Source: a virus
Lineage: Duplodnaviria; Heunggongvirae; Uroviricota; Caudoviricetes
Reading direction: 5' to 3' (one strand)
IMG/VR virus record: IMGVR_UViG_3300032241_002220
Span: 25,376 to 89,375 of that record
Length of the DNA: 64,000 nt
Position numbers and translations under genes: made by a program. Each line of letters opens with the position of its first letter. The first letter of the stretch is position 1. The notes beneath the pieces are model-generated. The model was given only the letters and a program-made list of their open reading frames with translations. It did no database searches and was not told the origin of the DNA. Of this stretch, positions 29,410 through 47,122 are shown in pieces.

Positions 29410-29646
29410 ATGAAAAAGATATTATCAATATTATTACTAACGAGTTTAGTAACATCGTGTGGACCAGGAACTTCACTTAGAGATACCTCAAACTATGAAA
29501 TATTAGTCGGCTCGGGAAATTCTATGGTGGTTTATTTTACAAATTCATATACCTTGGATTCAAACAAATGCATTTCGTTTAACGCTTTAGACGAAGGTGG
29601 GTTGGTTAAAATTTGTGGAAGTTATACCCTTTTAACGCTTAAATAA
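29410..29646 (+). CDS. putative lipoprotein
   Basis: MKKILSILLLTSLVTSC signal + lipobox. Confidence 0.45.
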   Translation: MKKILSILLLTSLVTSCGPGTSLRDTSNYEILVGSGNSMVVYFTNSYTLDSNKCISFNALDEGGLVKICGSYTLLTLK

Positions 29647-29663
29647 AATAAAACAATAAAGTT

Positions 29664-30704
29664 ATGTCGATTATTAAACAAGGTAGTCAATACACATTTG
29701 CTGATATCACTGCTAGTTATGAAGTACTGCCTAAGGGAGTGTATTTGATGAAACAGGATCAACAGGGAAACTTCTACCTAACACAGAAAGAGGATTTCGT
29801 TATGCCTAAAAAAATCTATGGCGATCATTCCATCACTAAACGTTGGTTGAAGTCATATAATGAGAACTCTGAAAAGAATATGGGTATTATCTTATCTGGT
29901 ATTAAAGGTTCGGGTAAAACCATTACTGCACAACAGTTTTGTATTCAATCAGGCTTACCAGTTGTTATTATTAATGAACCTTTCTCAGGACAGAATTTTG
30001 TTGATTTTTTAACAAACCCTAAACTTGGTAAATGCGTTATTTTCATTGATGAATTTGAAAAGATATATCCTGATAGTGGTAGGGATTCAACTAACGCAAA
30101 CGAGTTGTTGTCTTTGATGGACGGTAACTTCGCAACGCGCCTTATATTTTTACTTACTGTTAACGAGTTCAGGATAAACGAATACCTTGTAAACCGATTA
30201 AACCGTATCAAGTACCGTAAACACTACGAAGATTTAGATGAAAGCGTGGTTAGTGAAGTAATAGAGGATTTGCTTATAAACAAAGCACATACCGACTCCA
30301 TATACCAATTCTTTGATAGGATAAATATGTGTACTTTTGATTTGCTAGTTAATATAATCAAGGAAATGAACTTATTTGGTGAAGATGCTATATCATGTGG
30401 TAAACATCTAAACCTAAAAAGCGAAAATAAGTATTACGAGGTATTTGAAATATTTAAAGGTAAAGAATATCCATGCAATACTATAAATATGTGTGCTGGT
30501 GAAACTGAATTAGAAATTGAAAGAACAACAACTAATTATCTACCAGAACCTGATAAAGATTACCATTATATAACAATATCATTGATAGATTATCCACTTA
30601 AGAAATTATCAAATAAAACATCTATATTAAAAGCTAAAGATGTTGATGGTAAAGATGTGGAATTTAAATTAAAAGCACGTAGTTTTAATACTATGGTATT
30701 TTAA
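29664..30704 (+). CDS. AAA+ ATPase
   Basis: 346 aa. Walker A GIILSGIKGSGKT, Walker B VIFIDEFEK. Confidence 0.6.
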   Translation: MSIIKQGSQYTFADITASYEVLPKGVYLMKQDQQGNFYLTQKEDFVMPKKIYGDHSITKRWLKSYNENSEKNMGIILSGIKGSGKTITAQQFCIQSGLPVVIINEPFSGQNFVDFLTNPKLGKCVIFIDEFEKIYPDSGRDSTNANELLSLMDGNFATRLIFLLTVNEFRINEYLVNRLNRIKYRKHYEDLDESVVSEVIEDLLINKAHTDSIYQFFDRINMCTFDLLVNIIKEMNLFGEDAISCGKHLNLKSENKYYEVFEIFKGKEYPCNTINMCAGETELEIERTTTNYLPEPDKDYHYITISLIDYPLKKLSNKTSILKAKDVDGKDVEFKLKARSFNTMVF

Positions 30705-30711
30705 TAAGAAT

Positions 30712-30877
30712 AGTCAGGTGGCGGAATGTTAGACGCTATTAATCTTTGTTTTTAGTTCAGACGGATAGGCAAACGTAACATAAGACAGTGGAATATATTC
30801 TAGGATACGAAAGCCAAAGTTACTAGACAAACTGTTAAAAAAAATCTGAACGTGTGGGTTCAAGTCCCACCAGAATG
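30712..30877 (+). ncRNA. tRNA-like element (class II tRNA 5' acceptor/D-arm ... T-arm) with about 110-nt intervening sequence; not a foldable tRNA
   Basis: AGTCAGGTGGCGGAATGTTAGACGC is a canonical Leu/Ser-type acceptor + D-arm. GTGGGTTCAAGTCCCAC is a canonical T-arm 140 nt downstream. No 3' strand complementary to the acceptor. Confidence 0.3.
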
Positions 30878-30912
30878 GCATGAATTAAAAGCTAAAATAG
30901 AAAAATTAGAAA

Positions 30913-31356
30913 ATGAAAATGAAAACATATCAAGGTAAAATAAGGAATTTAGAACCAAACCAAGTATTTTGTTTTGGCTCTAATCCACTCGGAATTAACG
31001 GTTCGTTAAGAACTGGTAAGGGTGGATCAGCTTTATTTGCCTTAAAAAAAGGTTGGGTTAGACAAGGTGAAAGAATGAATAATTGTTTATCTTCTTGTGG
31101 TAAAGCATGGGGTATAGTCACCGTGACTGGACCTGGAAAGAAAAAATCTAAAACTCCGGAACAAATACAAGCGAATATATTAAAATTATATAGACATGCA
31201 GAAGCTAATTTTGGACAAGAGTTTTTAATTGCTTATACTGGAATTAACAATTATAATTTAAATGGGTATTCTAATAAAGAATTAGCAAAAATGTTTTCAA
31301 CTTTTCCAATACCTGATAATATAGTATTTGAAGAAGAATTCAGCACATTATTATGA
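30913..31356 (+). CDS. hypothetical protein
   Basis: 147 aa ORF. Confidence 0.45.
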   Translation: MKMKTYQGKIRNLEPNQVFCFGSNPLGINGSLRTGKGGSALFALKKGWVRQGERMNNCLSSCGKAWGIVTVTGPGKKKSKTPEQIQANILKLYRHAEANFGQEFLIAYTGINNYNLNGYSNKELAKMFSTFPIPDNIVFEEEFSTLL

Positions 31357-31445
31357 GCACCAAAATATACAATGCCGTTAGAATATCTAAAAAACTAGAT
31401 AAAGAAGCAAAAAGTGGGATGAATTAAAATTAAAAATACAACAAT

Positions 31446-31637
31446 ATGAGTGAAGTATTAACAGAATTACTAAAACAACGACAAGATGCTCAAAACAAAC
31501 TATACCAATTGGGTAAAGACGCAGTGCATCAACAACATGAAATAGCAGAAACTATCAAATCAATTGATAAAGCTATTACATCCATAAGCAATCATTCAGA
31601 GTACGATAAAGAATATGACGAAGATATTCACGATTAG
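31446..31637 (+). CDS. hypothetical coiled-coil protein
   Basis: 63 aa ORF. Confidence 0.35.
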   Translation: MSEVLTELLKQRQDAQNKLYQLGKDAVHQQHEIAETIKSIDKAITSISNHSEYDKEYDEDIHD

Positions 31638-31644
31638 TGAAATA

Positions 31645-31747
31645 GATATAATCTCTCGCGGGTTTTGTGTAAATCTCTATAAAAAGTTTGGAGAAACATA
31701 AAACCCGTCGTACATTTACGTCAATAAAGAAATAAAAAATAAACAAA
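31645..31747 (+). promoter_or_regulatory. compound promoter (box ATAATCTCTCGCGGG + hairpin + -7 TACATTTACG)
   Basis: CGGGTTTTGTG...CATAAAACCCG inverted repeat around AGTTTGGAG. ATG 31748. Confidence 0.6.
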
Positions 31748-32008
31748 ATGATACACGAATTAAAAACATTACCACAATATTTTCATCGAGTTTTCACAGG
31801 TGAAAAAACATTTGAAATACGTAAAAACGACAGAGATTTCCAAACAGGGGATGTATTACTTTTACAAGAATATCTACCAGAAGATGAAATATACAGTGGT
31901 CAAACAATCCGTGCTTCAGTAACCTATATCTTACAAGGTGGACAATTTGGAATTGAGCCGGGATATTGCGTTTTAGGAATCAAAGTATTTGGTGTAAATA
32001 AAAAATAA
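31748..32008 (+). CDS. ASCH/PUA-like small protein
   Basis: 86 aa. FEIRKNDRDFQTGD resembles the ASCH/DUF3850 motif. Conserved box + promoter upstream. Confidence 0.4.
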   Translation: MIHELKTLPQYFHRVFTGEKTFEIRKNDRDFQTGDVLLLQEYLPEDEIYSGQTIRASVTYILQGGQFGIEPGYCVLGIKVFGVNKK

Positions 32009-32049
32009 TTCCAAACCAACCGAAATCGGGGTAATTAAAATGATAAACT

Positions 32050-32268
32050 ATGTTTAAAAAGAAATACACAAAATGGATGCCATTAGGTAATTATAGTTGG
32101 GCTGGGGTAGATTTCATAGTCTTTGTACGAAGAAATATGAAAAATGGACTTTGCCAATTCAAAACAATACGAGTTCACACACGTTTTCGATTAGATTTAG
32201 TACCCAACGTATTGCCATCAACTTTAATAGACACTCGTAAAGCATGGAACGAATTAATTAACCAATAA
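32050..32268 (+). CDS. hypothetical protein
   Basis: 72 aa ORF. Confidence 0.35.
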   Translation: MFKKKYTKWMPLGNYSWAGVDFIVFVRRNMKNGLCQFKTIRVHTRFRLDLVPNVLPSTLIDTRKAWNELINQ

Positions 32269-32278
32269 AACATAAACT

Positions 32279-32587
32279 ATGCACAAAGAAATTGATATCG
32301 ATATAGTTGCTAAAGGCGAGGAATTGTACCCAATTGATATACACGGTGTGTCAGCTGATGTTTATGAAGGGCGTGAAGAAGAAATGGATTATAACTTTCA
32401 AGAACGCCAAGCCTACCAACAAGGCGCAATGGATGAACGCCAAAGAATAAATGAAGAAATATCCAAAATAGAAAGTTGGATAACAGAAAATAGACCACAC
32501 TTAACAGGCTTAGGCGCATTAACCGCTATGTTAAAACAAGTTAAGGCAGTTGAAACATTACCTTTACAAATCACTAAATCAAACTAA
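32279..32587 (+). CDS. hypothetical protein
   Basis: 102 aa ORF. Confidence 0.4.
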   Translation: MHKEIDIDIVAKGEELYPIDIHGVSADVYEGREEEMDYNFQERQAYQQGAMDERQRINEEISKIESWITENRPHLTGLGALTAMLKQVKAVETLPLQITKSN

Positions 32588-32597
32588 AATTAAACAT

Positions 32598-32843
32598 ATG
32601 GGATTCAATTACAATTTAGGAGACGACCAAATGCGAATGATTAATAAATTTGGTAAGGTAAGTAAAAATAATAATGATGAAACAGATCGTAACAGTCCAC
32701 GTTTTGATCCAACTACTTTACCTTTAAAAGAACAATTAGAATGGTTTGAGGAAAAGAAAGCAAAAGCCGCAGAAGCAAAATATAAAGCAGCTGCTGAAGC
32801 TAGATCAGCTAAACCAATTGTACGAACTACATTACGTAAATAA
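32598..32843 (+). CDS. hypothetical protein
   Basis: Internal ATG of track ORF 32550..32843 (MGFNYNLGDD...), chosen to avoid overlap. Confidence 0.35.
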   Translation: MGFNYNLGDDQMRMINKFGKVSKNNNDETDRNSPRFDPTTLPLKEQLEWFEEKKAKAAEAKYKAAAEARSAKPIVRTTLRK

Positions 32844-32884
32844 TTACATAATATGAAAGAAAAACTATCGGACAAATTAATGAT

Positions 32885-33091
32885 GTGTTGGATGAATATT
32901 TCCAATTAGATCAACTTAGATTTATTGACAAATGGGTGAGAGACCCTAACAATAAATGGAAACAAGAAAGGGTTGATAAAGCTATTAACCTATTAGACGA
33001 ATATAGAGAAAAACGTGCTAATCTAATCAAAGAAGATAAAGAAAAAAACGGAATGGCAATGGCGGGGCGACTACAAACAATACCACTATAA
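32885..33091 (+). CDS. hypothetical protein
   Basis: 68 aa ORF. Confidence 0.35.
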   Translation: MLDEYFQLDQLRFIDKWVRDPNNKWKQERVDKAINLLDEYREKRANLIKEDKEKNGMAMAGRLQTIPL

Positions 33092-33232
33092 TAAATCCAG
33101 ATACAACCAACGCCCATACACCAAACGAGATAGATAATAAAATAAATCAACTATATACACCGACGAGGAAAACACCCAATGATATAGATGATATAACACG
33201 AGTAAAACGCCCAACTAGTAGATAGATAGCAA

Positions 33233-33321
33233 TAACCGAATGGGTGAGGATCGACGTTGTTTTAGGCCTGTAATGTGTGACCAACGGTGGGGAAACGGGT
33301 GGGTGAATGGGTGGGTGAGGG
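33233..33321. repeat. G-rich short tandem repeats (AATGGGTGAGG, ACGGGTGGGTGA, ATGGGTGGGTGAGGG) with G-quadruplex potential
   Basis: GGTGGGG...GGGTGGGTGAATGGGTGGGTGAGGG: at least 5 GGG runs within 35 nt, inside a 380-bp ORF-free segment. Confidence 0.6.
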
Positions 33322-33399
33322 TATAGTATGTGGAAGTTATATGGCGGAACGTGGAGATGGTGATTTTCGCGGAGATAACCCTTTTTCCTCGCGCATCCA

Positions 33400-33486
33400 A
33401 CCACCTCCGATCGATAAAGTATATACGAGAATCGCGTGGAAATGCGATTTTCTTGTCGTATATTTACGTCAAATAATAAAAAACAT
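33400..33486 (+). promoter_or_regulatory. promoter with AATCGC-GTGGAAAT-GCGATT hairpin over the -33 region + -7 TATATTTACG
   Basis: Same hairpin-over--33 architecture. ATG 33487. Confidence 0.5.
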
Positions 33487-33589
33487 GAAAAAATTAACTG
33501 GATTAGAAATGATTATGTTGGCCTCTATGGTGATAGTTGGAACAGGAGTGCTATGGTTTATAATGTTTCTAATAGCTTTGGTGGGATAA
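33487..33589 (+). CDS. very small membrane protein
   Basis: MKKLTGLEMIMLASMVIVGTGVLWFIMFLIALVG. ATG 20 nt after a conserved promoter. The track ORF 33287 extends upstream into a non-coding G-rich repeat. Confidence 0.4.
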
Positions 33590-33894
33590 TTGCGATTTTC
33601 CCATATCTTCCCATATGTATAACCGATAAGCGAATTCGACTTTGGGATAACGCTGGTTTCCCCAACAAAGTAGCACGGCCTAGGCACGCAAAATGTTATA
33701 GCTTAATATTATCATGAGGTCGGACGGATAAATCCTCACAATAACGTTCAAAGAGAATAGGCAGCTCAACATAATGTCTCAGGAATAGATACCTGGTCAA
33801 ATGCTCTAACGGTAAAAAATTTAAAACTTGCATATAAATGCAGGCTATCATACTGCTCGGCACGATAAATAAACCTTATCACAGAAATATTTGG

Positions 33895-33944
33895 TAAATC
33901 GAAACACCGGTCGTATATTTACGTCAATAAAGAAATAAAGCGAT
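33895..33944 (+). promoter_or_regulatory. promoter (GTCGTATATTTACGTCAATAAAGAAATAAAG)
   Basis: ATG 33945. Confidence 0.55.
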
Positions 33945-34139
33945 ATGAATATACAAGAATTAAAAGAAAAAGTGGTATTAACAGCCGAAGAGCGTGATTT
34001 GGTAAATTCAGTAAACCCGGAATGGGTTGAAGAGTTTTTGTTTCACCATTCATGGAATAACACTTATCTAAATTTATCTGTATATTCAGAAGTTGAACAT
34101 GACCGACGTCAGTTTGAAATGGAAACGGGTATTTTTTAA
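33945..34139 (+). CDS. hypothetical protein
   Basis: 64 aa. Conserved promoter upstream. Confidence 0.45.
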   Translation: MNIQELKEKVVLTAEERDLVNSVNPEWVEEFLFHHSWNNTYLNLSVYSEVEHDRRQFEMETGIF

Positions 34140-34213
34140 AAATAGTTTGGTTACCTGAAGAAATGGTCGTAGATTTAACACATAATAATAATAACAATAA
34201 AAATAAAACAGTT

Positions 34214-34468
34214 ATGAAAAACACAGAAACACAATCAGTAAAACGCGGTCGTCCAGTTAGCACAAATAGTGCTCGTCAAGCAAGATTAGCAGCATGGGAA
34301 GCTAAACGTGCTAGCGGAATGGAAGTAAAACGCGGTCGTCCGGCTAAAGCAAAAACAACAAACGATGCTCCTAAAACACCGGAAATGCCTGTTGCTCGTA
34401 GGAAATCAGCAGTAAACAAAAACACAGATGTGGTAGTGATAGATAATATCAACCCAGAAAATAATTAA
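34214..34468 (+). CDS. AT-hook-like DNA-binding protein
   Basis: Two KRGRP motifs. Start set at the internal ATG after a promoter-like variant. Confidence 0.35.
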   Translation: MKNTETQSVKRGRPVSTNSARQARLAAWEAKRASGMEVKRGRPAKAKTTNDAPKTPEMPVARRKSAVNKNTDVVVIDNINPENN

Positions 34469-34523
34469 AGATACATTCAGTAAGCAGGGGCAAAGTCTGA
34501 ATTAAAACAAAATGTTGCCCATA

Positions 34524-34605
34524 TAGTCAGGTGGTGGAATTGGATAGACACAACCTCGCTCGGAGGTATAAGCGCAAACTTACAGGTTCGAATCCTGTCC
34601 TGACT
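34524..34605 (+). ncRNA. tRNA-like gene (class II architecture) with defective anticodon arm
   Basis: Acceptor AGTCAGG/CCTGACT is perfect. D-arm GTG..CAC. Variable hairpin TAAGCGCAAACTTA. T-arm ACAGGTTCGAATCCTGT. The anticodon stem ACCTC/GAGGT encloses only 5 nt (GCTCG). Confidence 0.4.
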
Positions 34606-34714
34606 ACAGATACTCTAACAGGCGCCAACCTGTCCCTATGGCGGGGCTAAGTAGAGTCAGTATTTTAAAACATAAAAATCAAAAAATAGGGCCTTTGTTT
34701 TTTATTATAATACG

Positions 34715-34870
34715 TTCCGGGCCGGTGCCGGGGTAAGATCTGGTGCCGGCCGTACGGCGTATATATTATGATAGTATTAGGATACCACGCGCGCTGATGT
34801 CCATCGATACGGCGGGCGGTGGAGAAAAGGATTAGATTAAAAGACAGAGCCTCTACAAATCCTCCACCAC
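34715..34870. repeat. GC-rich palindromic island (CCGGGCCGGTGCCGGGG / GGTGCCGGCCG, CGCGCGC, GGTGGAG...CTCCACC long hairpin)
   Basis: About 60% GC over 150 bp in a roughly 30% GC genome. Repeated GGTGCCGG. Non-coding. Confidence 0.55.
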
Positions 34871-34973
34871 CGATTGTATATACCTATATACTACCCCCAT
34901 TCATGGATTGGTTTTTCGAAATGGCAAACTTTTCTAAAATCCACAAAAAACAAAAAGAAAGATCTTTATAAAA

Positions 34974-35025
34974 AATTTGGAAACCACAAAATATATACGT
35001 ATATTTAAGTATAAATTAAAACAAT
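34974..35025 (+). promoter_or_regulatory. promoter variant (TTTGGAAACCACAAAATATATACGTATATTTAAGTATAAATTAAAAC)
   Basis: ATG 35026. Shares the TATATTTAAGTATAA form with the tRNA-array promoters. Confidence 0.5.
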
Positions 35026-40945: not shown

Positions 40946-40947
40946 TT

Positions 40948-40993
40948 GAATCGACTGGGTTAAAGGGCGGGTTCGACTCCCGCCCCGATTCCA
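40948..40993 (+). ncRNA. tRNA-like minihelix (acceptor + T-arm only) resembling the tmRNA 3' domain
   Basis: GAATCG-ACTGGGTTAAAG-GGGCGGG TTCGACT CCCGCCC-CGATTC-CA. Same T-loop TTCGACT as the tmRNA at 48426. 13 bp coaxial stem. Sits between two genes. Confidence 0.4.
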
Positions 40994-42029: not shown

Positions 42030-42102
42030 GGTGCCTAAGCTAATCTGGTGAAAGCGCTAGACTGAAAATCTAGAGAGATAGGGTCGAAACCTATAGGTAC
42101 CA
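42030..42102 (+). tRNA. tRNA-Phe (GAA)
   Basis: Acceptor GGTGCCT/AGGTACC. Anticodon stem CTAGA/TCTAG with loop CTGAAAA. Confidence 0.75.
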
Positions 42103-42172
42103 CAAAAACATAAAAATGAAACGAAAACAGTAACGCCGCTCTGAAATACGAGTGGCATAATAGAAATAAAAT

Positions 42173-42245
42173 GCGCTCGTAGCTCAATTGGTAGAGTAGC
42201 TGGCTTTTAACCAGCGGGTTGTAGGTTCGAACCCTACCGGGCGCA
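42173..42245 (+). tRNA. tRNA-Lys (TTT)
   Basis: GCGCTCG...TAGCTCAATTGGTAGAG. Anticodon stem GCTGG/CCAGC, loop CTTTTAA. T-arm GTAGGTTCGAACCCTAC. Confidence 0.85.
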
Positions 42246-42263
42246 CTTAAAAATATAACACAG

Positions 42264-42338
42264 ACGCGTGTGTAGCTCAATTTGGTAGAGTGTCGGTCTC
42301 CAAAACCGAAGATGAGGGTTCGAGTCCCTACATGCGTG
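42264..42338 (+). tRNA. tRNA-Trp (CCA)
   Basis: Anticodon stem TCGGT/ACCGA, loop CTCCAAA. T-loop TTCGAGT. Confidence 0.8.
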
Positions 42339-42345
42339 CAAGATT

Positions 42346-42418
42346 GCCTTCATAGTTCAATGGATTAGAACACTTGGCTACGGACCAAGAAATAGGAGTT
42401 CGAATCTCTTTGAAGGTA
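42346..42418 (+). tRNA. tRNA-Arg (ACG)
   Basis: Acceptor GCCTTCA/TGAAGGT. Anticodon stem CTTGG/CCAAG, loop CTACGGA. Confidence 0.8.
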
Positions 42419-42423
42419 CAAAA

Positions 42424-42496
42424 GGTCAAATGGCCGAGATGGCGTAGGCGTATGTCTGCAAAACATACCACAACAGTTCGAATCTGTTTTTGACCT
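42424..42496 (+). tRNA. tRNA-Cys (GCA)
   Basis: Acceptor GGTCAAA/TTTGACC. Anticodon stem TATGT/ACATA, loop CTGCAAA. T-arm AACAGTTCGAATCTGTT. Confidence 0.8.
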
Positions 42497-42506
42497 CTTA
42501 AAAAAA

Positions 42507-42560
42507 ATGTTTGGCTACCTAAAAAAACAGTCGTACATTTAAGTATAAGAAGATCTTTGA
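42507..42560 (+). promoter_or_regulatory. tRNA-array internal promoter (TTTGGCTACCTAAAAAAACAGTCGTACATTTAAGTATAAGAAG)
   Basis: Same -33/-7 architecture, 20 nt 5' of tRNA-Pro. Confidence 0.55.
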
Positions 42561-42579
42561 CATATTGGGATTAATTCAA

Positions 42580-42656
42580 TCGAGAGGTCGGGCAGATGGT
42601 TATACCCGCGTGCTTTGGGAGCACGATATCGCTGGTTCGAATCCAGTTCTCTCGAC
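42580..42656 (+). tRNA. tRNA-Pro (TGG)
   Basis: Acceptor TCGAGAG/CTCTCGA. Anticodon stem CGTGC/GCACG, loop TTTGGGA. T-loop TTCGAAT. Has its own promoter-like motif upstream. Confidence 0.75.
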
Positions 42657-42663
42657 ATAAAAT

Positions 42664-42738
42664 GGGCTGGCATGTTCCAAGGCTTGGCGATTCTCCTTTG
42701 CACGGAGAGTGTGAAGAGTTCGATTCTCTTCTGGTCCA
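42664..42738 (+). tRNA. tRNA-Ala (TGC), atypical D region
   Basis: Anticodon stem TCTCC/GGAGA, loop TTTGCAC. T-arm AAGAGTTCGATTCTCTT. The acceptor needs 3 G-U pairs. Confidence 0.5.
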
Positions 42739-42743
42739 CATTC

Positions 42744-42814
42744 AGTCCCTTAGCTCAACGGAAGAGCGCTTGTTTTACATGCAAGAGGCTGTGATATCGT
42801 AATTCACAGGGACT
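42744..42814 (+). tRNA. tRNA-Val (TAC)
   Basis: Acceptor AGTCCCT/AGGGACT. D-arm GCTC..GAGC. Anticodon loop TTTACAT. T-loop ATCGTAA. Confidence 0.7.
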
Positions 42815-42891
42815 ACTCATGGTTTATTAGTATACAATGTCAATCATAGGAACTAATATTGGAGTTATACCAATTAAAAAATATAACAAAC

Positions 42892-42963
42892 GCAGATATC
42901 GTATAGCGGTTATTACTCTGGTCTTCCAAACCGGAGACGTCGGTTCGATTCCGACTATCTGCT
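42892..42963 (+). tRNA. tRNA-Gly (TCC)
   Basis: Acceptor GCAGATA/TATCTGC. Anticodon loop CTTCCAA. T-arm GTCGGTTCGATTCCGAC. Confidence 0.85.
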
Positions 42964-42968
42964 CTTAT

Positions 42969-43041
42969 AGTCCAATGATGTAACTGGCAACATGGCGTGT
43001 TTTGAGCTCGCTCTTCTAGGTTCGAATCCTGGTTGGACTAC
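42969..43041 (+). tRNA. tRNA-Gln (TTG)
   Basis: Acceptor AGTCCAA/TTGGACT. D-stem ATGT/ACAT. Anticodon loop TTTTGAG. T-arm CTAGGTTCGAATCCTGG. Confidence 0.75.
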
Positions 43042-43045
43042 ATTT

Positions 43046-43135
43046 GGAAGCATAGCCTAATTGGTAAGACAGCAGTCTTGAAAACTGCCGTGTCGGTGAT
43101 GAATCGGCTTATAGGTTCGAGTCCTATTGCTTCCG
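43046..43135 (+). tRNA. tRNA-Ser (TGA), class II
   Basis: Acceptor GGAAGCA/TGCTTCC. Anticodon stem GCAGT/ACTGC, loop CTTGAAA. About 22-nt variable arm. T-arm ATAGGTTCGAGTCCTAT. Confidence 0.85.
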
Positions 43136-43488
43136 CTAAAATAAACTAGACACTGTAAAAACCAGTGGTTGACTTAATAACTATAGGAGTAATTACCTAT
43201 GTATGCGAACAGCAATTAATCCTGACAGCAATGTTTATTTTAATATGGGTCTTTAAGCTTTAAGGTGAAGCGCATGTTTGTGGAGCATGAGAACTCGGTT
43301 CAATACCGTGATGGACCCCAACAAGGAAAGTAAAGCAACGAGGTTGTTGCCACCACCTGCTAAGTGAGTGGATCATTAAATTGATTGTGTTTCGACTACA
43401 CTGCTTTCCGCGAAATCCAATGTGTGCTGCTGCTAGCCGGAGACACAAAACAGAAGTGAAGGAACTGTTCCACATTTGGATTTTTATT

Positions 43489-43561
43489 GGAGATATAGTA
43501 GAATGGTTCAGCACACCTGTCTGATACGCAGGTAATCCAAGTTCGAGTCTTGGTATCTCCA
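43489..43561 (+). tRNA. tRNA-Ile (GAT)
   Basis: Acceptor GGAGATA/TATCTCC. Anticodon loop CTGATAC. T-arm CCAAGTTCGAGTCTTGG. Confidence 0.8.
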
Positions 43562-43571
43562 CTTATAAATT

Positions 43572-43644
43572 GGACTTGTAGCTCAGAGGCAGAGCAGGCG
43601 GCTGTTAACCGTCAGGTCGGTGATTTCGAAATTCCCCAAGTCCG
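43572..43644 (+). tRNA. tRNA-Asn (GTT), degenerate T-arm
   Basis: Acceptor GGACTTG/CAAGTCC is perfect. D-arm GCTC..GAGC. Anticodon loop CTGTTAA. T-stem pairs poorly (GGTGA TTTCGAA ATTCC). Confidence 0.55.
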
Positions 43645-43651
43645 CAAAATT

Positions 43652-43740
43652 GAGAGTAAGGTAACTATTGGTTGGTTATCAACGGCTGTAACCCGTCAGG
43701 CCCAGAAAGGGGGTAGGTTCGATTCCTACTACTCTCACCA
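43652..43740 (+). tRNA. tRNA-Tyr (GTA), class II, CCA encoded
   Basis: Acceptor GAGAGTA/TACTCTC followed by A-CCA. Anticodon loop CTGTAAC. Variable arm CCCAGAAAGGG. T-arm GTAGGTTCGATTCCTAC. Confidence 0.75.
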
Positions 43741-43761
43741 AAATAAAAAAACTTCTTAAAA

Positions 43762-43820
43762 AGAGGTTGGCTTATAGAAATCTTGTTCGTATATTTAGGT
43801 ATAAGAAAAAAGATAAGAAG
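43762..43820 (+). promoter_or_regulatory. tRNA-array internal promoter (TTGGCTTATAGAAATCTTGTTCGTATATTTAGGTATAAGAAAAAAGATAAGAAG)
   Basis: After tRNA-Tyr, before the second tRNA sub-cluster. Confidence 0.5.
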
Positions 43821-43835
43821 CTCTTTGAAAATATT

Positions 43836-43910
43836 GAAACTGTGGTAATAAGTTGAGTTACTTCGTATGGCTTATATAAAATGAACTCACTTAAGCATTC
43901 CCGGTTAAAA
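43836..43910 (+). repeat. conserved hairpin element copy 1 (GTAATAAGTTGAGTTACTTCGT ... AACTCACTTAAGC)
   Basis: A near-identical 22-nt arm recurs at 44622. Stem AAGTTGAGTT/AACTCACTT. Confidence 0.5.
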
Positions 43911-43941
43911 TCATTTAGGTGGTTAATTAGAAAGTTACTTC

Positions 43942-44015
43942 GCACGAATAGTTCAATGGTTGAACATTTTCATATCCAGAAAAAGTAACGGGTTCAATTC
44001 CCGTTTCATGCCCCA
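43942..44015 (+). tRNA. tRNA-like gene with non-standard anticodon loop ATATCCA (anticodon ATC?), CCA encoded
   Basis: Acceptor GCACGAA/TTCATGC (one C-A mismatch) + C-CCA. Canonical D-arm TAGTTCAATGGTTGAAC. Anticodon stem TTTTC/GAAAA. T-arm ACGGGTTCAATTCCCGT. Confidence 0.45.
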
Positions 44016-44067
44016 AAAAAACTTTCTTAAACATTCCCCTAAACTTATTTGATGAATAGTAAGGACC

Positions 44068-44145
44068 AGCGTTACTTCGCGTGCAAGGTGCACATTTAAA
44101 TTTGGCTTTTAAAAATCGCGGTTCAATTCCGCCTGAAACGCTACC
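44068..44145 (+). ncRNA. degenerate tRNA-like element ending in ACCA
   Basis: T-arm GCGGTTCAATTCCGC and a terminal ...GAAACGCTACCA. 5' AGCGTTA pairs with AAACGCT, but the D/anticodon region (GTGCAAGGTGCAC hairpin) does not fold as a tRNA. Confidence 0.3.
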
Positions 44146-44168
44146 AATGTTCTTTCATCATTTTTTAT

Positions 44169-44241
44169 GTTCCTGAGGACAAAATGGTTGAGTCGTCACC
44201 CTTTCAAGGTGAAGGAGCGGGATCGTTACCCGTCAGGAATA
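44169..44241 (+). tRNA. tRNA-Glu (TTC)
   Basis: Acceptor GTTCCTG/CAGGAAT (one G-U). Anticodon stem TCACC/GGTGA, loop CTTTCAA. T-arm GCGGGATCGTTACCCGT. Confidence 0.7.
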
Positions 44242-44247
44242 CAACAA

Positions 44248-44318
44248 GGTCTATTAGTGAATTGGTATCATATCTCACTGTCTATGAGAAGTGCTCGGAT
44301 CGTAACCGTGATAGACCG
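44248..44318 (+). tRNA. tRNA-Asp (GTC)
   Basis: Acceptor GGTCTAT/ATAGACC. Anticodon stem TCTCA/TGAGA, loop CTGTCTA. T-loop ATCGTAA. Confidence 0.7.
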
Positions 44319-44327
44319 CCAACAAAT

Positions 44328-44400
44328 GCTTCTATAGCTCAATGGTCAGAGCAGGACGCTTATATCGTCAAGGCTACAGGTTCGAGTCCTGTTAGAAGTA
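44328..44400 (+). tRNA. tRNA-Ile (TAT) (AUA-reading, UAU anticodon)
   Basis: Acceptor GCTTCTA/TAGAAGT. D-arm GCTC AATGGTCA GAGC. Anticodon loop CTTATAT with U33 and A37. T-arm ACAGGTTCGAGTCCTGT. Confidence 0.65.
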
Positions 44401-44417
44401 CTAAAAACAAAAATAAA

Positions 44418-44609
44418 ATGAAAAAAATAGTAATCTACAAAGATGTAGAAAATGTAAACGGTAAAAAAGAACGTCATATTCTTCGTTCAATCCAGCCTAG
44501 TTATGATTGGCAAGGATATGCGAAAAATAAAAACAGTATGATAGATTCTGAAGTTAGGAATTTAGCACGTGCTTTAGAACCTAGTTTTACAGGATTCTAT
44601 GTAGCATAA
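44418..44609 (+). CDS. hypothetical small protein
   Basis: MKKIVIYKDVENVNGKK... The track ORF 44184..44609 starts inside tRNA genes, so it is trimmed to the first ATG after tRNA-Ile(TAT). Confidence 0.4.
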   Translation: MKKIVIYKDVENVNGKKERHILRSIQPSYDWQGYAKNKNSMIDSEVRNLARALEPSFTGFYVA

Positions 44610-44621
44610 AGATATTTGCTG

Positions 44622-44690
44622 TAGTAATAAGTTGAGTTACTTCGTCTGACTTTTTAATTCATAAATGAAAAAACAACTCACTTAAACTTT
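44622..44690 (+). repeat. conserved hairpin element copy 2 (GTAATAAGTTGAGTTACTTCGT ... AACTCACTTAAAC)
   Basis: Second copy, upstream of the tRNA-Met/Thr/Arg/Leu sub-cluster. Confidence 0.5.
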
Positions 44691-44712
44691 CTCAGTAAAC
44701 TTATTTTAAAAT

Positions 44713-44787
44713 TGTGGGATGCGTAGAAAATGGTTATCTCGTCAGTCTCATAAGCTGAAGTTCCCGGTTCAAGTCCGGGTCCCGCAA
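44713..44787 (+). tRNA. tRNA-Met (CAT)
   Basis: Acceptor TGTGGGA/TCCCGCA (one G-U). Anticodon stem TCAGT/GCTGA, loop CTCATAA. T-arm CCCGGTTCAAGTCCGGG. Confidence 0.7.
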
Positions 44788-44911
44788 CATAAGTCCTTGA
44801 TCAGGAACCGAAGATATGGTCGGCCTCTTGTGTAAACAATGCACACTGCTACCATCTAAACCGTAGGTTAGCACAGTTCACAACTCTGGGGATATTTTAA
44901 AAGTTGTATTT

Positions 44912-44986
44912 GGACGCATAGTTTAGTTGGAAAAACACTTGCCTTGTAAGCATGAGTTCTCGGGTCGGTTCCGGGTGTGTCCTCCA
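44912..44986 (+). tRNA. tRNA-Thr (TGT), CCA encoded, unusual T-loop
   Basis: Acceptor GGACGCA/TGTGTCC + T-CCA. Anticodon loop CTTGTAA (stem has one U-U). T-arm CTCGG GTCGGTT CCGGG. Confidence 0.6.
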
Positions 44987-44991
44987 CGCAT

Positions 44992-45064
44992 GGTTCTATC
45001 GTTCAATGGATTAGGACAATTGCCTTCTAAGCAATTTATGCTGGTTCGAATCCAGCTAGAACTA
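44992..45064 (+). tRNA. tRNA-Arg (TCT)
   Basis: Acceptor GGTTCTA/TAGAACT. Anticodon stem ATTGC/GCAAT, loop CTTCTAA. T-arm GCTGGTTCGAATCCAGC. Confidence 0.85.
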
Positions 45065-45070
45065 CAACCC

Positions 45071-45152
45071 GCTCCGATGGTGTAATTGGCAGCCACGCTA
45101 GACTTAGGATCTAGTGTCGTAAGACGTAAGGGTTCGAGTCCCTTTTGGAGCA
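45071..45152 (+). tRNA. tRNA-Leu (TAG), class II
   Basis: Acceptor GCTCCGA/TTGGAGC. Anticodon stem CTAGA/TCTAG, loop CTTAGGA. Variable hairpin GTCGTAAGACG. T-arm AAGGGTTCGAGTCCCTT. Confidence 0.8.
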
Positions 45153-45162
45153 CTTAACAAAA

Positions 45163-45248
45163 TATTTGGCTAAGCAAAAAATTGGTCTTATATTTACGAC
45201 ATAATAAAGCAATTAAAAATTCTCTAACAATAAAAAATTAGTAGTAAA
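45163..45248 (+). promoter_or_regulatory. promoter for the Ro60-like gene (TTTGGCTAAGCAAAAAATTGGTCTTATATTTACGACATAATAAAG)
   Basis: ATG 45249. Confidence 0.5.
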
Positions 45249-46790
45249 ATGGCACGTTACAATTCAAAAGCAACAACAGTTACTCCAACAGTAACAAACC
45301 ACCAAGGTGGAACAGGGTACAAATACGACCCAAAAACAGAATTAATCTCAATATTAGCAACAGGCTTGGATAACAAGTATTATGAAAAAGTAGGTGAACG
45401 TGAACAACGTTTGGCCAAAGTCATAGAAGAAGTAGCTAAAAAAGACAAACTATTTGCTGCAAAAGCTCTAGTGTATGCTCGTACCGTAATGGGACAAAGA
45501 ACAGTAACACACTTTGGTGCTGTAGAATTAGCTAAAGTATTAGGAGGTGATTCTCTAGGTTCTCGTTTCTTTTCAAAGCGTGAACGTAAACAAAACAAAG
45601 GTGGTATTATCTTCCGTTTGGATGATATGCTTGAAATTGCTGCTTGTTATCAAGCACGTAATGAAGGTAAACCATTTTCAAATGCAATCAAGAAAGGTTT
45701 TAAATCCGCTCTTGAATCAGCAGATGAATATGAATTAGCTAAATATCAAGCTAAAAATCGCGATTTATCTTTAGTTGACATCGTTAACTTAGTACACCCA
45801 AAACCATCACCAAGAATGGCTCCAGTGTTTGCTAAATTGATGAAAGGTGAACTTAAACAGTTTAATACTGTAGAAGATAAAAATACTAAAGCTGGTCAAG
45901 AAGTTGCTGCTAAAGTAAAAGAAGGTAAAATTACTAAAGAAGAAGCAGCAGTTGAATTAGCGCAAGCTAAAGAAGACAACTATGCCGAATTGATTAAAAC
46001 ACGTAAAATCGGTTATTTAGCTTTATTACGTAATTTACGCAATATTCTAAAAACAGGTGCCGATAAAGAAATTATAAACGGTGCTTGTGAACTATTAACT
46101 GATCAAAAGTTAATTAAACAATCTTTAGTGTTTCCACACCAAATAGATTTAGCATTAGAAATAATGTTGGATGAATTTGGTTCAAGTAAAGTTAAACCAT
46201 TTGTTAAAGCATTAAACACCGCTTACGAACTAGCGATACCAAACCTAACAGAATTATTTCCAAATGGCCGCACAGCGGTTGTATTTGACAGTTCAGGTTC
46301 AATGTCAACATCTATTAGTTTAGCTAATAAAAATAATGGTTCAGAATCAGCCATTTCAAAAGCAGCATTAATTGCCGCTACTTTAGCTAAAGGTATTGAA
46401 GCCGATGTTTATCACTTTGCTGATCGTTGTGATGAAATCAAGTTTAACCCACTTGATACAGTTAACACACTTAAGAATCAATTTTTAAATAAACAAGGTT
46501 CAGTTGGTTATGGTACTGCCTTTGCCAGTATTATGAAAAAATTAGGTGATCAATATGACCGTGTGTTTGTAATATCGGATATGCAAGGTAGTGATTATCT
46601 TGAAAGAGCTAATTACAAAAATCTTCACATATATTCAATCGATATTGCCGGTTATGGTACAACAATGTTCAAACCAGGAAACAAAGTTTATTCATTGTTT
46701 GGTTATTCTGCCGATATTTATGAATTGATAAAGAAAGTGGAAATCGATCCAAAAGCGTTAATCGCCGAAATCGAAGCAATAGAAATTTAA
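45249..46790 (+). CDS. rsr: Ro60-like TROVE domain + vWA domain RNA-binding protein
   Basis: 513 aa. N-terminal QGGTGYKYDPKTELISILATGLDNKYYE resembles the TROVE signature. C-terminal TAVVFDSSGSMS is a vWA MIDAS DxSxS. Domain order as in Ro60/Rsr. Confidence 0.6.
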   Translation: MARYNSKATTVTPTVTNHQGGTGYKYDPKTELISILATGLDNKYYEKVGEREQRLAKVIEEVAKKDKLFAAKALVYARTVMGQRTVTHFGAVELAKVLGGDSLGSRFFSKRERKQNKGGIIFRLDDMLEIAACYQARNEGKPFSNAIKKGFKSALESADEYELAKYQAKNRDLSLVDIVNLVHPKPSPRMAPVFAKLMKGELKQFNTVEDKNTKAGQEVAAKVKEGKITKEEAAVELAQAKEDNYAELIKTRKIGYLALLRNLRNILKTGADKEIINGACELLTDQKLIKQSLVFPHQIDLALEIMLDEFGSSKVKPFVKALNTAYELAIPNLTELFPNGRTAVVFDSSGSMSTSISLANKNNGSESAISKAALIAATLAKGIEADVYHFADRCDEIKFNPLDTVNTLKNQFLNKQGSVGYGTAFASIMKKLGDQYDRVFVISDMQGSDYLERANYKNLHIYSIDIAGYGTTMFKPGNKVYSLFGYSADIYELIKKVEIDPKALIAEIEAIEI

Positions 46791-46813
46791 AATTTTCCAA
46801 TAAAGTAAAATGA

Positions 46814-46838
46814 CTGGGTGTTTCTACACCCGGTTTTT
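46814..46838 (+). terminator. rho-independent terminator after the Ro60-like gene
   Basis: CTGGGTG-tttcta-CACCCGG + TTTTT. Confidence 0.65.
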
Positions 46839-47120: not shown

Positions 47121-47122
47121 CT

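What the first reader, a model, noticed from the sequence alone, without database searches (positions are those of the whole stretch)
30712..34605. Two related tRNA-like elements outside the array that share a Leu/Ser-type 5' half (TAGTCAGGTGG(C/T)GGAAT)
The elements at 30712 and 34524 start with nearly the same acceptor + D-arm. The 34524 copy is a complete class-II cloverleaf except for a 5-nt anticodon loop. The 30712 copy has a canonical T-arm 140 nt downstream but no 3' acceptor strand. Both lie in intergenic gaps. They could be decayed tRNA genes, intron-containing or permuted tRNAs, or structured regulatory or Y-like RNAs.
Basis: seen in the sequence. Interest (0 to 1): 0.55.

Follow-up and report, generated by a model that had tools for sequence, protein, structure and literature searches.

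The report
Phage tRNA-Leu chassis RNAs, variable cargo
The two elements belong to a large family of phage RNA genes, apparently undescribed, that keep the upper half of a leucine tRNA almost unchanged and replace the anticodon region with a different insert in nearly every copy; one window copy is intact and the other has lost its 3' end.

Summary
The 17-mer TAGTCAGGTGG(C/T)GGAAT occurs exactly twice, at 30711 and 34524.

**Family.** It is the 5' end of a phage-specific family.
- The 5' frame is AGTCAGG-TG-GCGGAAT(T)GGTAGACGC.
- The 3' frame is U48-ACAGGTTCGAATCCTGT-CCTGACT-A73-C74.
- Both frames are nearly invariant.
- The 17-266 nt between them, called cargo here, fall into 157 unrelated clusters among 199 parsed copies.

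**el2 (34525-34606)** is an intact member. It scores 68.7 bits on a family model built without it; the window's real tRNAs score 36 bits or less. ARAGORN's "tRNA-Glu(CUC)" call is an artefact.

**el1 (30712-30870)** is a truncated member. Orthologues in lake metagenomes are 159/160 identical through the T arm and then continue CCTGACTACAA. In the window, homology stops there and a different 517-nt cassette follows.

**What the frame keeps.** It keeps what RNase P, the CCA-adding enzyme and bacterial LeuRS read, and it varies what LeuRS ignores.

**Best reading (inferred).** This is a natural tRNA scaffold that the host's tRNA enzymes process, possibly leucylated, carrying fast-changing structured RNA cargo of unknown function.

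I found no Rfam family, no literature and no copy in GenBank phages.

The parts
34525..34606 (+). el2: an intact member of the phage tRNA-Leu-frame family, from A1 to discriminator A73. T is at -1 (34524) and C74 is at 34607.
   Evidence: It scores 68.7 bits (E 5e-15) over the full length of family model R1, which was built without it. It scores 36.8 bits on Rfam tRNA. ARAGORN labels it 'tRNA-Glu ctc'.
34525..34551 (+). el2 5' frame: acceptor 5' strand AGTCAGG (34525-34531), U8 G9, and D arm GTGG-AATTGGATAG-ACAC (34534-34551). It carries the U11-A24 variant of the D-stem pair.
   Evidence: Coordinates are. Pair 11-24 covaries across the family: CG 176, UA 18.
34552..34581 (+). el2 cargo (30 nt). 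It consists of A26, the stem ACCTC/GAGGT with the 5-nt loop GCTCG (34553-34567), a short AAG/CTT hairpin, and a final U48.
   Evidence: There is no canonical 7-nt anticodon loop with U33. The cargo is unique: it has no exact match in viral contigs.
34582..34606 (+). el2 3' frame: T arm ACAGG-TTCGAAT-CCTGT (34582-34598), acceptor 3' strand CCTGACT (34599-34605) and discriminator A (34606).
   Evidence: It is identical to the family consensus.
34607..34688 (+). Module downstream of el2: hairpin ACTCTA...TAGAGT followed by a U-rich run. Together with the 3' frame it is conserved in near relatives. It may be a 3' processing or terminator element.
   Evidence: Window 34578-34688 is 92.8% identical to L289 and L293. 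The wider region 34607-35025 folds with z = -3.1.
30712..30736 (+). el1 5' frame: acceptor 5' strand AGTCAGG (30712-30718), U8 G9, and D arm GCGG-AATGTTAG-ACGC (30721-30736). This is the 'GTTAGAC' D-loop subfamily, which has U in place of G19.
   Evidence: The same 24-mer occurs in 42 metagenome contigs, most with complete frames and differing cargos.
30737..30853 (+). el1 cargo (117 nt). It includes a domain closed by GTTCAGA (30755-30761) pairing with TCTGAAC (30845-30851), and it ends in U48.
   Evidence: The cargo is conserved almost base for base in L289, L290, L293, L296 and L306.
30854..30870 (+). el1 T arm GTGGG-TTCAAGT-CCCAC. It is intact.
   Evidence: It is identical in the orthologues, where CCTGACTACAA follows.
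30871..31388 (+). Rearrangement junction and window-specific cassette. Homology to relatives ends at 30871, and CAGAATG replaces the acceptor 3' strand CCTGACT. The cassette carries ORF 30913-31356 (147 aa, no Pfam match). Relatives have about 809 nt here instead, holding another family member and a different ORF.
   Evidence: BLAST blocks cover 29643-30871 and then 31389-31754. Sequences are, the 159/160 identity followed by a break is, and the Pfam result is.

Best explanation
**What is shown**
- Both elements are copies of one phage-borne gene family derived from a class-II tRNA-Leu.
- The family keeps the upper half of the tRNA nearly invariant:
  - the 7-bp acceptor stem AGTCAGG/CCTGACT
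  - U8, A14 and A15
  - the Leu-type D arm
  - U48 and the T arm
  - discriminator A73 and an encoded C74
  - U at -1
- The anticodon arm and variable arm are replaced by a cargo of 17-266 nt. The cargo differs in almost every copy and is often a structured RNA in its own right.
- el2 is an intact copy.
- el1 is a copy whose 3' acceptor strand was cut off by a recent cassette replacement. In this genome it is most likely a dead or crippled copy.

**What is inferred**
- The RNAs are transcribed along with the neighbouring genes, or from their own promoters.
- Host RNase P would cut at U-1/A1. The 3' end would be trimmed and completed to CCA.
- The result would be a stable L-shaped RNA that presents the cargo where the anticodon arm would be. 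This is the natural counterpart of the engineered tRNA scaffold used to express recombinant RNAs.
- The conserved positions are the bacterial LeuRS identity set, and the variable part is what LeuRS ignores. Some or all copies may therefore be charged with leucine.
- The cargo is the effector. The copies look like accessory genes of the counter-defence or host-takeover kind, for three reasons:
  - the cargo is extremely diverse
  - genomes carry several copies
  - cargo and copy number differ between very close relatives
- The molecular target is unknown.
For: **A real, phage-specific family**
Of 135 hits, 118 also carry the 3' frame, which was not part of the query.
- In bacterial genomes only about 10 of 120 hits have the frame. 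The rest are chance matches in coding DNA.

**It acts as an RNA**
- Stem pairs show compensatory changes:
  - D 11-24: CG 176, UA 18
  - T 49-65: AU 155, GC 22, GU 21
  - T 50-64: CG 182, UA 11
  - T 51-63: AU 180, GC 10
- Single positions are conserved: U-1 86%, A73 85%, C74 94% and U48 89%.
- 161 of 171 copies are intergenic, and 81% point the same way as the nearest ORF.

**It is not a decoder**
- ARAGORN calls only 23 of 115 copies, with scattered anticodons.

**Cargo**
- 199 parsed copies give 157 cargo clusters, 132 of them singletons.
- Cargo folds better than shuffles: mean z = -0.86, p about 1e-18.
- One cargo subfamily shows compensatory pairs in its long helix.

**el2**
- 68.7 bits on family model R1, against 36 bits or less for the window's tRNAs.

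**el1**
- Orthologues are 159/160 identical up to the T arm and then continue CCTGACTACAA. They score 41-42 bits over their full length.
- The window copy gives only fragments of 17 and 11 bits.

**Turnover between close relatives**
- At the el2 locus, relatives keep the 3' frame and the downstream module but have a different D loop and cargo.
- These relatives carry additional members that the window lacks.

**LeuRS logic**
- The review PMC9976931 states that E. coli LeuRS needs A73, A15-U48, G18G19, A20a and the D/T-loop contacts.

**Partner protein**
- No protein family is enriched near the copies, which points to host factors.
Against: - There is no expression, processing or charging data of any kind. 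Every step after 'it is a conserved RNA gene' is inference.
- The el1-type subfamily has U instead of G19. In E. coli this would weaken leucylation and the elbow contact.
- The acceptor-stem sequence is far more conserved than RNase P, the CCA-adding enzyme or LeuRS would require. Some other reader of that sequence, or recent spread by recombination, is not excluded. My searches were also seeded on that sequence, which inflates its apparent invariance.
- The structure signal in the cargo is modest on average. Only 39% of cargos have z < -1.
- No complementarity between cargo and the window was found beyond chance.
Confidence: 0.6

Rival explanations
1. mRNA punctuation only. The conserved upper half is kept solely as an RNase P / RNase Z cleavage signal that cuts polycistronic phage transcripts. 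The centre is unconstrained leftover tRNA-Leu sequence that drifts and expands. The released RNA has no function of its own.
For: - el1 begins 7 nt after the stop codon of the upstream gene.
- 81% of copies point the same way as the nearest ORF.
- The conserved part is what the tRNA end-processing enzymes read. This rests on general knowledge of those enzymes.
- A separate acceptor plus T-arm minihelix sits right after another gene's stop codon, at 40947-40993.
Against: - Cargo helices show compensatory changes, and cargos fold better than shuffles.
- Tandem copies occur with no ORF between them, so nothing there needs separating (L011, L262 and L306).
- Positions that matter for LeuRS or the tertiary core but not for cleavage are conserved: A15-U48 and A73.
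- Nearly identical flanks can hold wholly different cargos, which looks like exchange rather than drift.
Confidence: 0.17
2. Decoys or sponges for tRNA-directed host factors. The Leu-type body would attract a defence nuclease, a toxin or an enzyme such as LeuRS. The centre would vary to escape or tune recognition.
For: - The pattern is phage-specific, multi-copy and fast-changing, as expected of arms-race genes.
- The paper listing returned includes an abstract (PMC13096335) reporting that the Septu defence system cleaves the variable loop of tRNA-Tyr.
- The acceptor sequence is conserved beyond structural need.
Against: - Nothing links the family to any defence system.
- A decoy for an anticodon-loop or variable-loop nuclease should mimic that loop, not replace it with unrelated sequence.
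- This is one possible function of the scaffold rather than a true alternative to it.
Confidence: 0.12
3. DNA-level elements. The 8-bp inverted ends TAGTCAGG...CCTGACTA and the conserved frames would act as recombination or attachment sites, or as the ends of a small mobile element. The RNA-like features would be ancestry only.
For: - Both mosaic junctions between the window and its near relatives fall inside the elements. One is just after the el1 T arm at 30871, and the other is just before the el2 T arm at 34578.
- The ends are inverted repeats, read directly from the sequence.
Against: - The T and D stems show RNA-type compensatory changes.
- Single-stranded positions with known tRNA roles are conserved (U-1, U8, A14, A15, U48, A73, C74).
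- The copies have a strand bias that follows their neighbours.
- No integrase or transposase is enriched nearby.
- The flanking base profiles show no target-site duplication.
- Crossovers at short conserved sequences are expected in mosaic phages whatever the function of those sequences.
Confidence: 0.06
4. Genuine decoding tRNAs. el2 would be tRNA-Glu(CUC), or an unusual Leu or suppressor tRNA. el1 would be an intron-containing tRNA.
For: - ARAGORN calls el2 tRNA-Glu(ctc).
- el2 scores 36.8 bits on Rfam tRNA.
- A few family members keep a loop like that of tRNA-Leu(UAA), CUUAAGU.
Against: - The el2 loop is 5 nt long. If opened to 7 nt, it has G at position 33 instead of U.
- A Leu-type body with A73 would not be charged with Glu. 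This follows from tRNA identity rules (PMC9976931).
- Family copies yield random 'anticodons', and 92 of 115 yield none.
- el1 has no acceptor pairing and gets no intron model at default stringency.
Confidence: 0.03

Closest known systems
Bacterial class-II tRNA-Leu (Rfam RF00005 tRNA)
   Same: - The acceptor, D and T arms and the tertiary-core nucleotides are the same.
- The D arm GCGGAAUUGGUAGACGC matches my recollection of the E. coli tRNA-Leu D arm.
- The discriminator is A73.
- A few members still carry a Leu(UAA)-type loop.
- el2 passes the Rfam tRNA threshold.
   Different: - Most copies have no anticodon loop.
- The anticodon and variable arms are replaced by unrelated inserts of 17-266 nt.
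- The first pair is A1-U72.
- The family occurs essentially only in phages.
Engineered 'tRNA scaffold' for recombinant RNA expression, in which the cargo replaces the anticodon arm (Ponchon and Dardel; cited from my own knowledge)
   Same: The design is the same. A tRNA body is kept so that cellular enzymes recognise and stabilise the RNA, and an arbitrary structured RNA is inserted where the anticodon stem would be.
   Different: That is a laboratory construct. This would be a natural, evolved and diversified version. Processing and stability are untested here.
tmRNA (RF00023)
   Same: The 5' and 3' ends form a tRNA-like acceptor and T-arm domain around an internal functional module. tmRNA is aminoacylated without an anticodon. 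The window's phage also encodes a tmRNA (48053-48448).
   Different: - tmRNA has Ala identity through G3-U70, lacks a true D arm and needs SmpB.
- Its internal part is a tag ORF plus pseudoknots.
- The family here has a full Leu-type D arm and short non-coding inserts.
- There is no Rfam tmRNA hit at el1 or el2.
Bacterial Y RNA YrlA (tRNA-mimic module plus Ro-binding module; PMC4201824 appears in the listing but I did not read it, so the layout described here is from my own knowledge)
   Same: It is a modular non-coding RNA in which a tRNA-like domain is joined to an effector domain.
   Different: - In YrlA the RNA ends form the Ro-binding stem and the tRNA-like part is internal. That is the opposite layout.
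- No Rfam Y RNA model appears at E<=10.
- No protein family, Ro/Rsr included, is enriched near family members.
Viral and cellular tRNA-like RNAs released by RNase P/Z: the tRNA-miRNA hybrids (TMERs) of murine gammaherpesvirus 68 and MALAT1 mascRNA (from my own knowledge)
   Same: A virus uses a tRNA-like module so that host tRNA enzymes produce a small RNA.
   Different: Those systems are eukaryotic, with Pol III transcription and RNase Z. Their cargo lies downstream of the tRNA-like part, not inside it.

Membership tests
Phage tRNA-Leu-frame / variable-cargo family (defined here) | 5' frame: AGTCAGG, UG, and a Leu-type D arm (GCGGAAU(U)GGUAGACGC or a covarying variant) | tested here: met
   Both el1 (30712-30736) and el2 (34525-34551) have it. 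el2 carries the compensated U11-A24 variant.
Phage tRNA-Leu-frame / variable-cargo family (defined here) | 3' frame: U48, a 5-bp T stem with a UUCRANU loop, then CCUGACU pairing with the 5' strand, then A73 and C74 | tested here: met
   - **el2:** met in full (34581-34607).
- **el1:** U48 and the T arm are present, but the acceptor 3' strand, A73 and C74 are absent in the window. All are present in the orthologues L290, L293, L296 and L306. For el1 as it stands in the window, this feature is not met.
Phage tRNA-Leu-frame / variable-cargo family (defined here) | Full-length match to a covariance model built from other members | tested here: met
   - **el2:** 68.7 bits, E 5e-15, model positions 1-96.
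- **el1 in the window:** only fragments of 17.2 and 11 bits.
- **el1 orthologues:** 41-42 bits over the full length.
Phage tRNA-Leu-frame / variable-cargo family (defined here) | A non-decoding centre, with no canonical 7-nt anticodon loop carrying U33 | tested here: met
   - **el2:** 5-nt loop GCUCG.
- **el1:** a 117-nt insert.
Canonical decoding tRNA | Paired 7-bp acceptor stem | tested here: met
   - **el2:** 7 of 7 Watson-Crick pairs.
- **el1:** only about 3 of 7 positions can pair, one of them G-U, so it is not met for el1.
Canonical decoding tRNA | Anticodon arm with a 7-nt loop, U33 and a purine at 37, and an anticodon consistent with the body's identity | tested here: not met
   The el2 loop has 5 nt, or 7 nt with G33. 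The 'CUC' (Glu) reading conflicts with a Leu-type body carrying A73.
Intron-containing tRNA | A valid cloverleaf once a single insert in or next to the anticodon loop is removed | tested here: not met
   ARAGORN with introns of 0-300 nt allowed finds nothing for el1 at default stringency. At 80% stringency it gives a 'tRNA-Gln' model with a mismatched acceptor. Family exons are not conserved next to the insert.
Substrate of bacterial LeuRS (leucine identity) | A73, the A15-U48 pair, G18G19, A20a and intact D/T-loop contacts; anticodon and variable arm not required | tested here: inconclusive
   - **Sequence determinants in el2:** A73, A15, U48 and G18G19 are all present.
- **Across the family:** A73 85% and U48 89%.
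- **el1 subfamily:** lacks G19.
- **Source of the rules:** they come from E. coli work summarised in PMC9976931.
- **Not testable here:** charging itself cannot be tested with these tools.
tmRNA | G3-U70 Ala identity, a tag ORF with resume codon, and pseudoknots | tested here: not met
   Pair 3-70 is U-A. There is no Rfam or ARAGORN tmRNA call at either locus.
Bacterial Y RNA (YrlA) | Terminal Ro-binding stem with an internal tRNA-like domain, and linkage to rsr | tested here: not met
   No Rfam Y RNA model appears at E<=10. The layout is the reverse. No protein family, Ro/Rsr included, is enriched near members.

The most novel reading that the evidence does not exclude
Uncultivated phages of freshwater Bacteroidota would carry a natural, modular RNA-display system. 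A tRNA-Leu chassis is matured by the host's own tRNA enzymes, and perhaps leucylated. Hundreds of unrelated small structured RNAs have been slotted into it and are exchanged between close relatives. They would act as aptamer-like or decoy effectors in host takeover or counter-defence.
Probability: 0.35. Interest if true: 0.9.

Novelty: new variant of a known kind. Interest (0 to 1): 0.72.

Why it matters
**If the scaffold reading holds**
- Phages would have arrived at the same solution that RNA engineers use to make foreign RNAs stable in bacteria.
- They would have used it to field a very diverse library of small RNAs. That would be a large, untapped set of natural functional RNA modules.
- It would also be a new class of phage accessory gene made of RNA rather than protein.
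- It would raise a concrete question that can be tested: are anticodon-less RNAs charged with leucine in infected cells, and what for?

**Practical points that hold now**
- tRNA finders label these genes as ordinary tRNAs with arbitrary anticodons. Here el2 is called 'tRNA-Glu CUC'. Such calls contaminate phage tRNA counts and analyses of codon usage or recoding.
- The conserved frames mark crossover points between phage genome modules.

Tried and rejected
**Known RNA families**
- Rfam gathering-threshold search of the whole window: only the tRNA array and the tmRNA.
- Rfam permissive search of 30500-35000: only tRNA for el2, plus noise.
- Rfam on 28 related loci: no family covers any cargo.

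**tRNA models**
- ARAGORN with introns and lowered stringency gives no credible model for el1.

**Cultured or deposited phages**
- The region has no close or distant relative in the GenBank phage collection.
- Neither frame is found there. The best match to the 3' frame is 87% over 30 nt, inside ordinary tRNAs.

**Exact relatives**
- Scans of viral contigs for the el1 3' junction and for the el2 cargo found nothing.
- Look-ups by the flanking proteins returned only contigs identical to the window, from run ERR2848514.

**Synteny**
- Phages with 31-62% identical AAA-ATPase genes have no element at the el1 position, although some have members nearby.

**Partner protein**
- I clustered 1,047 ORFs lying within 3 kb of family members. 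The top cluster, which looks like a terminase large subunit, is present in 9 loci.

**Antisense targets**
- The el1 and el2 cargos have no complementarity to the window beyond chance.

**Overall fold of el1**
- It is not more stable than shuffles (z = -0.31).

**Promoter and terminator scan**
- Sigma-70 promoter-like and terminator-like sites around the loci are no more frequent than in shuffles.

**Literature**
- Seven searches, including one for the literal frame sequences, found no description of the family.
- The catalogue of about 10,000 candidate viral RNAs (PMC10690425) mentions tRNA-like candidates but not this architecture.

Full report
**Setting**

The window is AT-rich, about 30% G+C. 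Genes run mostly on the + strand. It holds a tRNA array at 42030-47121 and a tmRNA at 48053-48448.

It looks like part of a large phage:
- Protein-level relatives lie on viral contigs of up to 393 kb.
- A gene next to the region carries a CHU_C type IX secretion signal domain, which points to a Bacteroidota host.
- Nothing similar is in the GenBank phage collection.
- Contigs identical to the window come from run ERR2848514.

- TAGTCAGGTGGYGGAAT occurs exactly at 30711 and 34524 and nowhere else, even with three mismatches allowed.
- el2 (34525-34606) folds as a class-II-like cloverleaf. Its 'anticodon' stem ACCTC/GAGGT closes a 5-nt loop.
- ARAGORN calls el2 tRNA-Glu(CUC) by opening the last stem pair, which puts G at position 33.
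- el2 scores 36.8 bits on Rfam's tRNA model.
- el1 has the same acceptor strand and D arm (30712-30736). A perfect T arm follows at 30854-30870. The next seven bases, CAGAATG, cannot pair with AGTCAGG.
- T-arm-like motifs occur 20 times in the window, all on the + strand. About 0.2 are expected in shuffles of the sequence outside the tRNA array and tmRNA, so the el1 T arm is not chance.

**The shared 5' half is the signature of a large family**

Of 135 hits, 118 also carry a 3' frame that was not in the query: ACAGGTTCGAATCCTGT-CCTGACT-ACA. Between the two frames lies a segment with no conservation.

With looser criteria, and adding a metagenome scan, I hold 209 distinct copies. In the 199 I could parse:
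- The centre is 17-266 nt long, median 58.
- The centres fall into 157 sequence clusters, 132 of them singletons.

Other properties of the family:
- Many contigs carry two to nine copies, each with a different centre.
- Copies often sit in or next to ordinary tRNA arrays.
- In bacterial genomes the same 16-mer is almost always a chance match inside coding DNA. Only about 10 of 120 hits have the frame. These lie on Chitinophagia, Flavobacterium or Sediminibacterium contigs, or on short contigs that are probably mis-binned phage DNA.

**It is constrained as an RNA, and as a tRNA-Leu**

The stems covary:

| Pair | Counts |
|---|---|
| D stem 11-24 | CG 176, UA 18 |
| T stem 49-65 | AU 155, GC 22, GU 21 |
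| T stem 50-64 | CG 182, UA 11 |
| T stem 51-63 | AU 180, GC 10 |

Single positions with known tRNA roles are kept:
- U at -1 in 86% of copies
- discriminator A73 in 85%
- C74 in 94%
- the last base before the T arm is U in 89%, which is U48
- U8, A14 and A15 are nearly invariant

The D arm GCGGAAU(U)GGUAGACGC is of the tRNA-Leu type. A few members still have a CUUAAGU loop, as in tRNA-Leu(UAA).

Most copies cannot decode. ARAGORN recognises 23 of 115, and assigns them scattered anticodons.

According to the identity review PMC9976931, E. coli LeuRS depends on A73, the A15-U48 pair, G18G19, A20a and the D/T-loop contacts. It does not read the anticodon or the variable arm, and it still charges tRNA-Leu variants that lack both arms. 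The family therefore conserves what LeuRS and the end-processing enzymes read, and varies what they ignore. That is a sequence argument, not a demonstration.

**The centre is not just drift**

- Cargos fold better than their shuffles: mean z = -0.86, 39% below -1, p about 1e-18.
- In one six-member cargo subfamily, three pairs of a long helix, standing where the anticodon stem would be, show changes on both sides.
- Another cluster shows CAUGG/CCAUG changing to CAUAG/CUAUG.

**el2 is an intact member**

A covariance model built from 64 other members scores el2 at 68.7 bits over its full length. The window's real tRNAs score 36 bits or less. el2 has U-1, A73, C74, U48 and the compensated U11-A24 D-stem variant.

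**el1 is a truncated member**

A metagenome scan with the el1-type 5' frame found 42 contigs. By their names, most come from freshwater-lake metagenomes. Most carry complete frames with many different cargos, so the AAUGUUAGAC D loop is a normal subfamily variant.

Five contigs carry the el1 cargo itself. In four of them the T arm is followed by CCTGACTACAA. These orthologues score 41-42 bits over their full length.

The window copy is 159/160 identical to the L296 orthologue up to the first base after the T arm. Then homology stops.

BLAST shows that the relatives match the window over 29643-30871 and again from 31389. In between:
- The window has 517 nt (30872-31388) holding a 147-aa ORF with no Pfam match.
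- The relatives have about 809 nt holding a further family member and a different ORF.

So a cassette replacement removed the acceptor 3' strand. The window copy gives only fragments of 17 and 11 bits on the model.

**Turnover at the el2 locus**

The same relatives keep the el2 3' frame and the 82-nt downstream module, at 92.8% identity over 34578-34688. Their D loop, cargo and upstream flank are different. They also hold further members that the window lacks.

Both mosaic junctions thus fall inside the elements. Copy number and cargo change between genomes whose shared genes are about 96-97% identical.

**Context gives no partner**

- 161 of 171 copies are intergenic, and 81% point the same way as the nearest ORF.
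- About 13% have a TAnnTTTG motif just upstream. From my own knowledge this is the Bacteroidota -7 promoter element.
- Clustering 1,047 neighbouring ORFs found no enriched family. The top cluster, which looks like a terminase large subunit, occurs in 9 loci.

The RNA therefore most likely works with host factors.

**Interpretation**

Shown:
- This is a conserved, phage-specific, tRNA-Leu-derived RNA gene family with a hypervariable centre.
- el2 is intact and el1 is truncated.

Inferred:
- The RNAs are matured by RNase P, 3' trimming and CCA addition into stable L-shaped RNAs.
- They display the cargo in the way the engineered tRNA scaffold does.
- They may be leucylated.
- The cargos are fast-evolving accessory effectors.

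The main rival is that the frames serve only as transcript-cutting signals. The cargo covariation, and tandem copies with nothing between them, count against it. DNA-level roles and true decoding are unlikely, for the reasons given under the rival explanations.

**Novelty**

- No specific Rfam family matches these elements.
- No copy is in the GenBank phage collection.
- Seven literature searches, including one for the literal sequences, found no description.
- A 2023 catalogue of candidate viral RNAs mentions tRNA-like candidates only in general terms.

I rate it a new variant of a known kind, namely tRNA-derived non-coding RNAs. The caveat is that subscription-only literature was not searchable.

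Noticed in passing
window 40947-40993 (+): An acceptor plus T-arm minihelix sits directly after a gene's stop codon (TAA at about 40943): GAATCG..(12 nt)..GGCGGGTTCGACTCCCGCC-CCGATTC-CA. It has no D arm or anticodon arm. It scores 23.5 bits on the family model as a generic tRNA-like hit. It may be a 3'-end processing or stabilising element.
   Followed up: partly
window 42660-42740 (+): Between tRNA-Pro and tRNA-Val there is a T arm AAGAGTTCGATTCTCTT and an anticodon-like arm TCTCC-TTTGCAC-GGAGA (UGC, Ala-like). The acceptor is poor. ARAGORN and Rfam both miss it.
   Followed up: no
window 11383, 18201, 18493, 23629, 27099, 27225, 27614, 31713, 33461, 33916, 39340: The near-palindromic motif TATTTACGT(A/C)AA gives 16 pattern matches at these 11 sites. 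The palindromic sites are counted on both strands. About 0.84 matches are expected by chance. It is probably a phage promoter or operator repeat. Copies at 31713 and 33916 precede gene starts near the two elements.
   Followed up: partly
window 33092-34160 and 34607-35025: These are two G+C-richer stretches with few ORFs around el2. The downstream one folds well beyond shuffles (z = -3.1) and has long GC hairpins, for example at 34716-34760. The upstream one does not (z = -0.16). Neither has an Rfam match.
   Followed up: partly
L086 275-531, L104 412-649, L258 2792-3050, L027 95-316, L028 2265-2488, L084 16-157: A conserved non-coding RNA candidate of about 230 nt lies next to family members in several phage contigs. 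Its motifs are ACGTTCCGG..CCGGATAGTATGCC..ACGATGAGAA..GGTAAGTGGCGGTTACTTGGTAACAGCAGG..GGGGACAGCC..TGTAAGTTGGATAGA. It has no Rfam match, and nhmmer does not find it in the window.
   Followed up: partly
L014 from ~5030, L099 6677-6746: These loci hold a second tRNA-like frame with a different acceptor: GGCTATG-TG-GTGGGAGGC ... GGTTCAACTCCTGC-CATGGCC-GCAAAAC. It sits just downstream of members of the first family. This hints that the chassis idea is not limited to one frame.
   Followed up: no
L038 1477-1884: A GOLLD RNA (298.8 bits on Rfam) lies on the same strand about 1.4 kb from a family member at about 3290-3363.
   Followed up: no
window 42030-42102, 44169-44241, 44720-44787, 43942-44015: Rfam finds three tRNAs in the array that ARAGORN does not report. 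ARAGORN's tRNA-Asp(atc) at 43942-44015 has an unusual A34 anticodon.
   Followed up: no
window 31748-32008 (+): A small gene between the two elements encodes a DUF3850 / ASCH-domain protein (110 bits on Pfam). From my own knowledge, ASCH is a putative RNA-binding fold. No link to the elements was established.
   Followed up: no
window 30834-30902 (+): One reading frame runs across the el1 T arm and the rearrangement junction and reads ...KKNLNVWVQVPPEWHELKAKIEKLENENENISR*. This may be the C-terminal remnant of a gene brought in with the replacing cassette.
   Followed up: no
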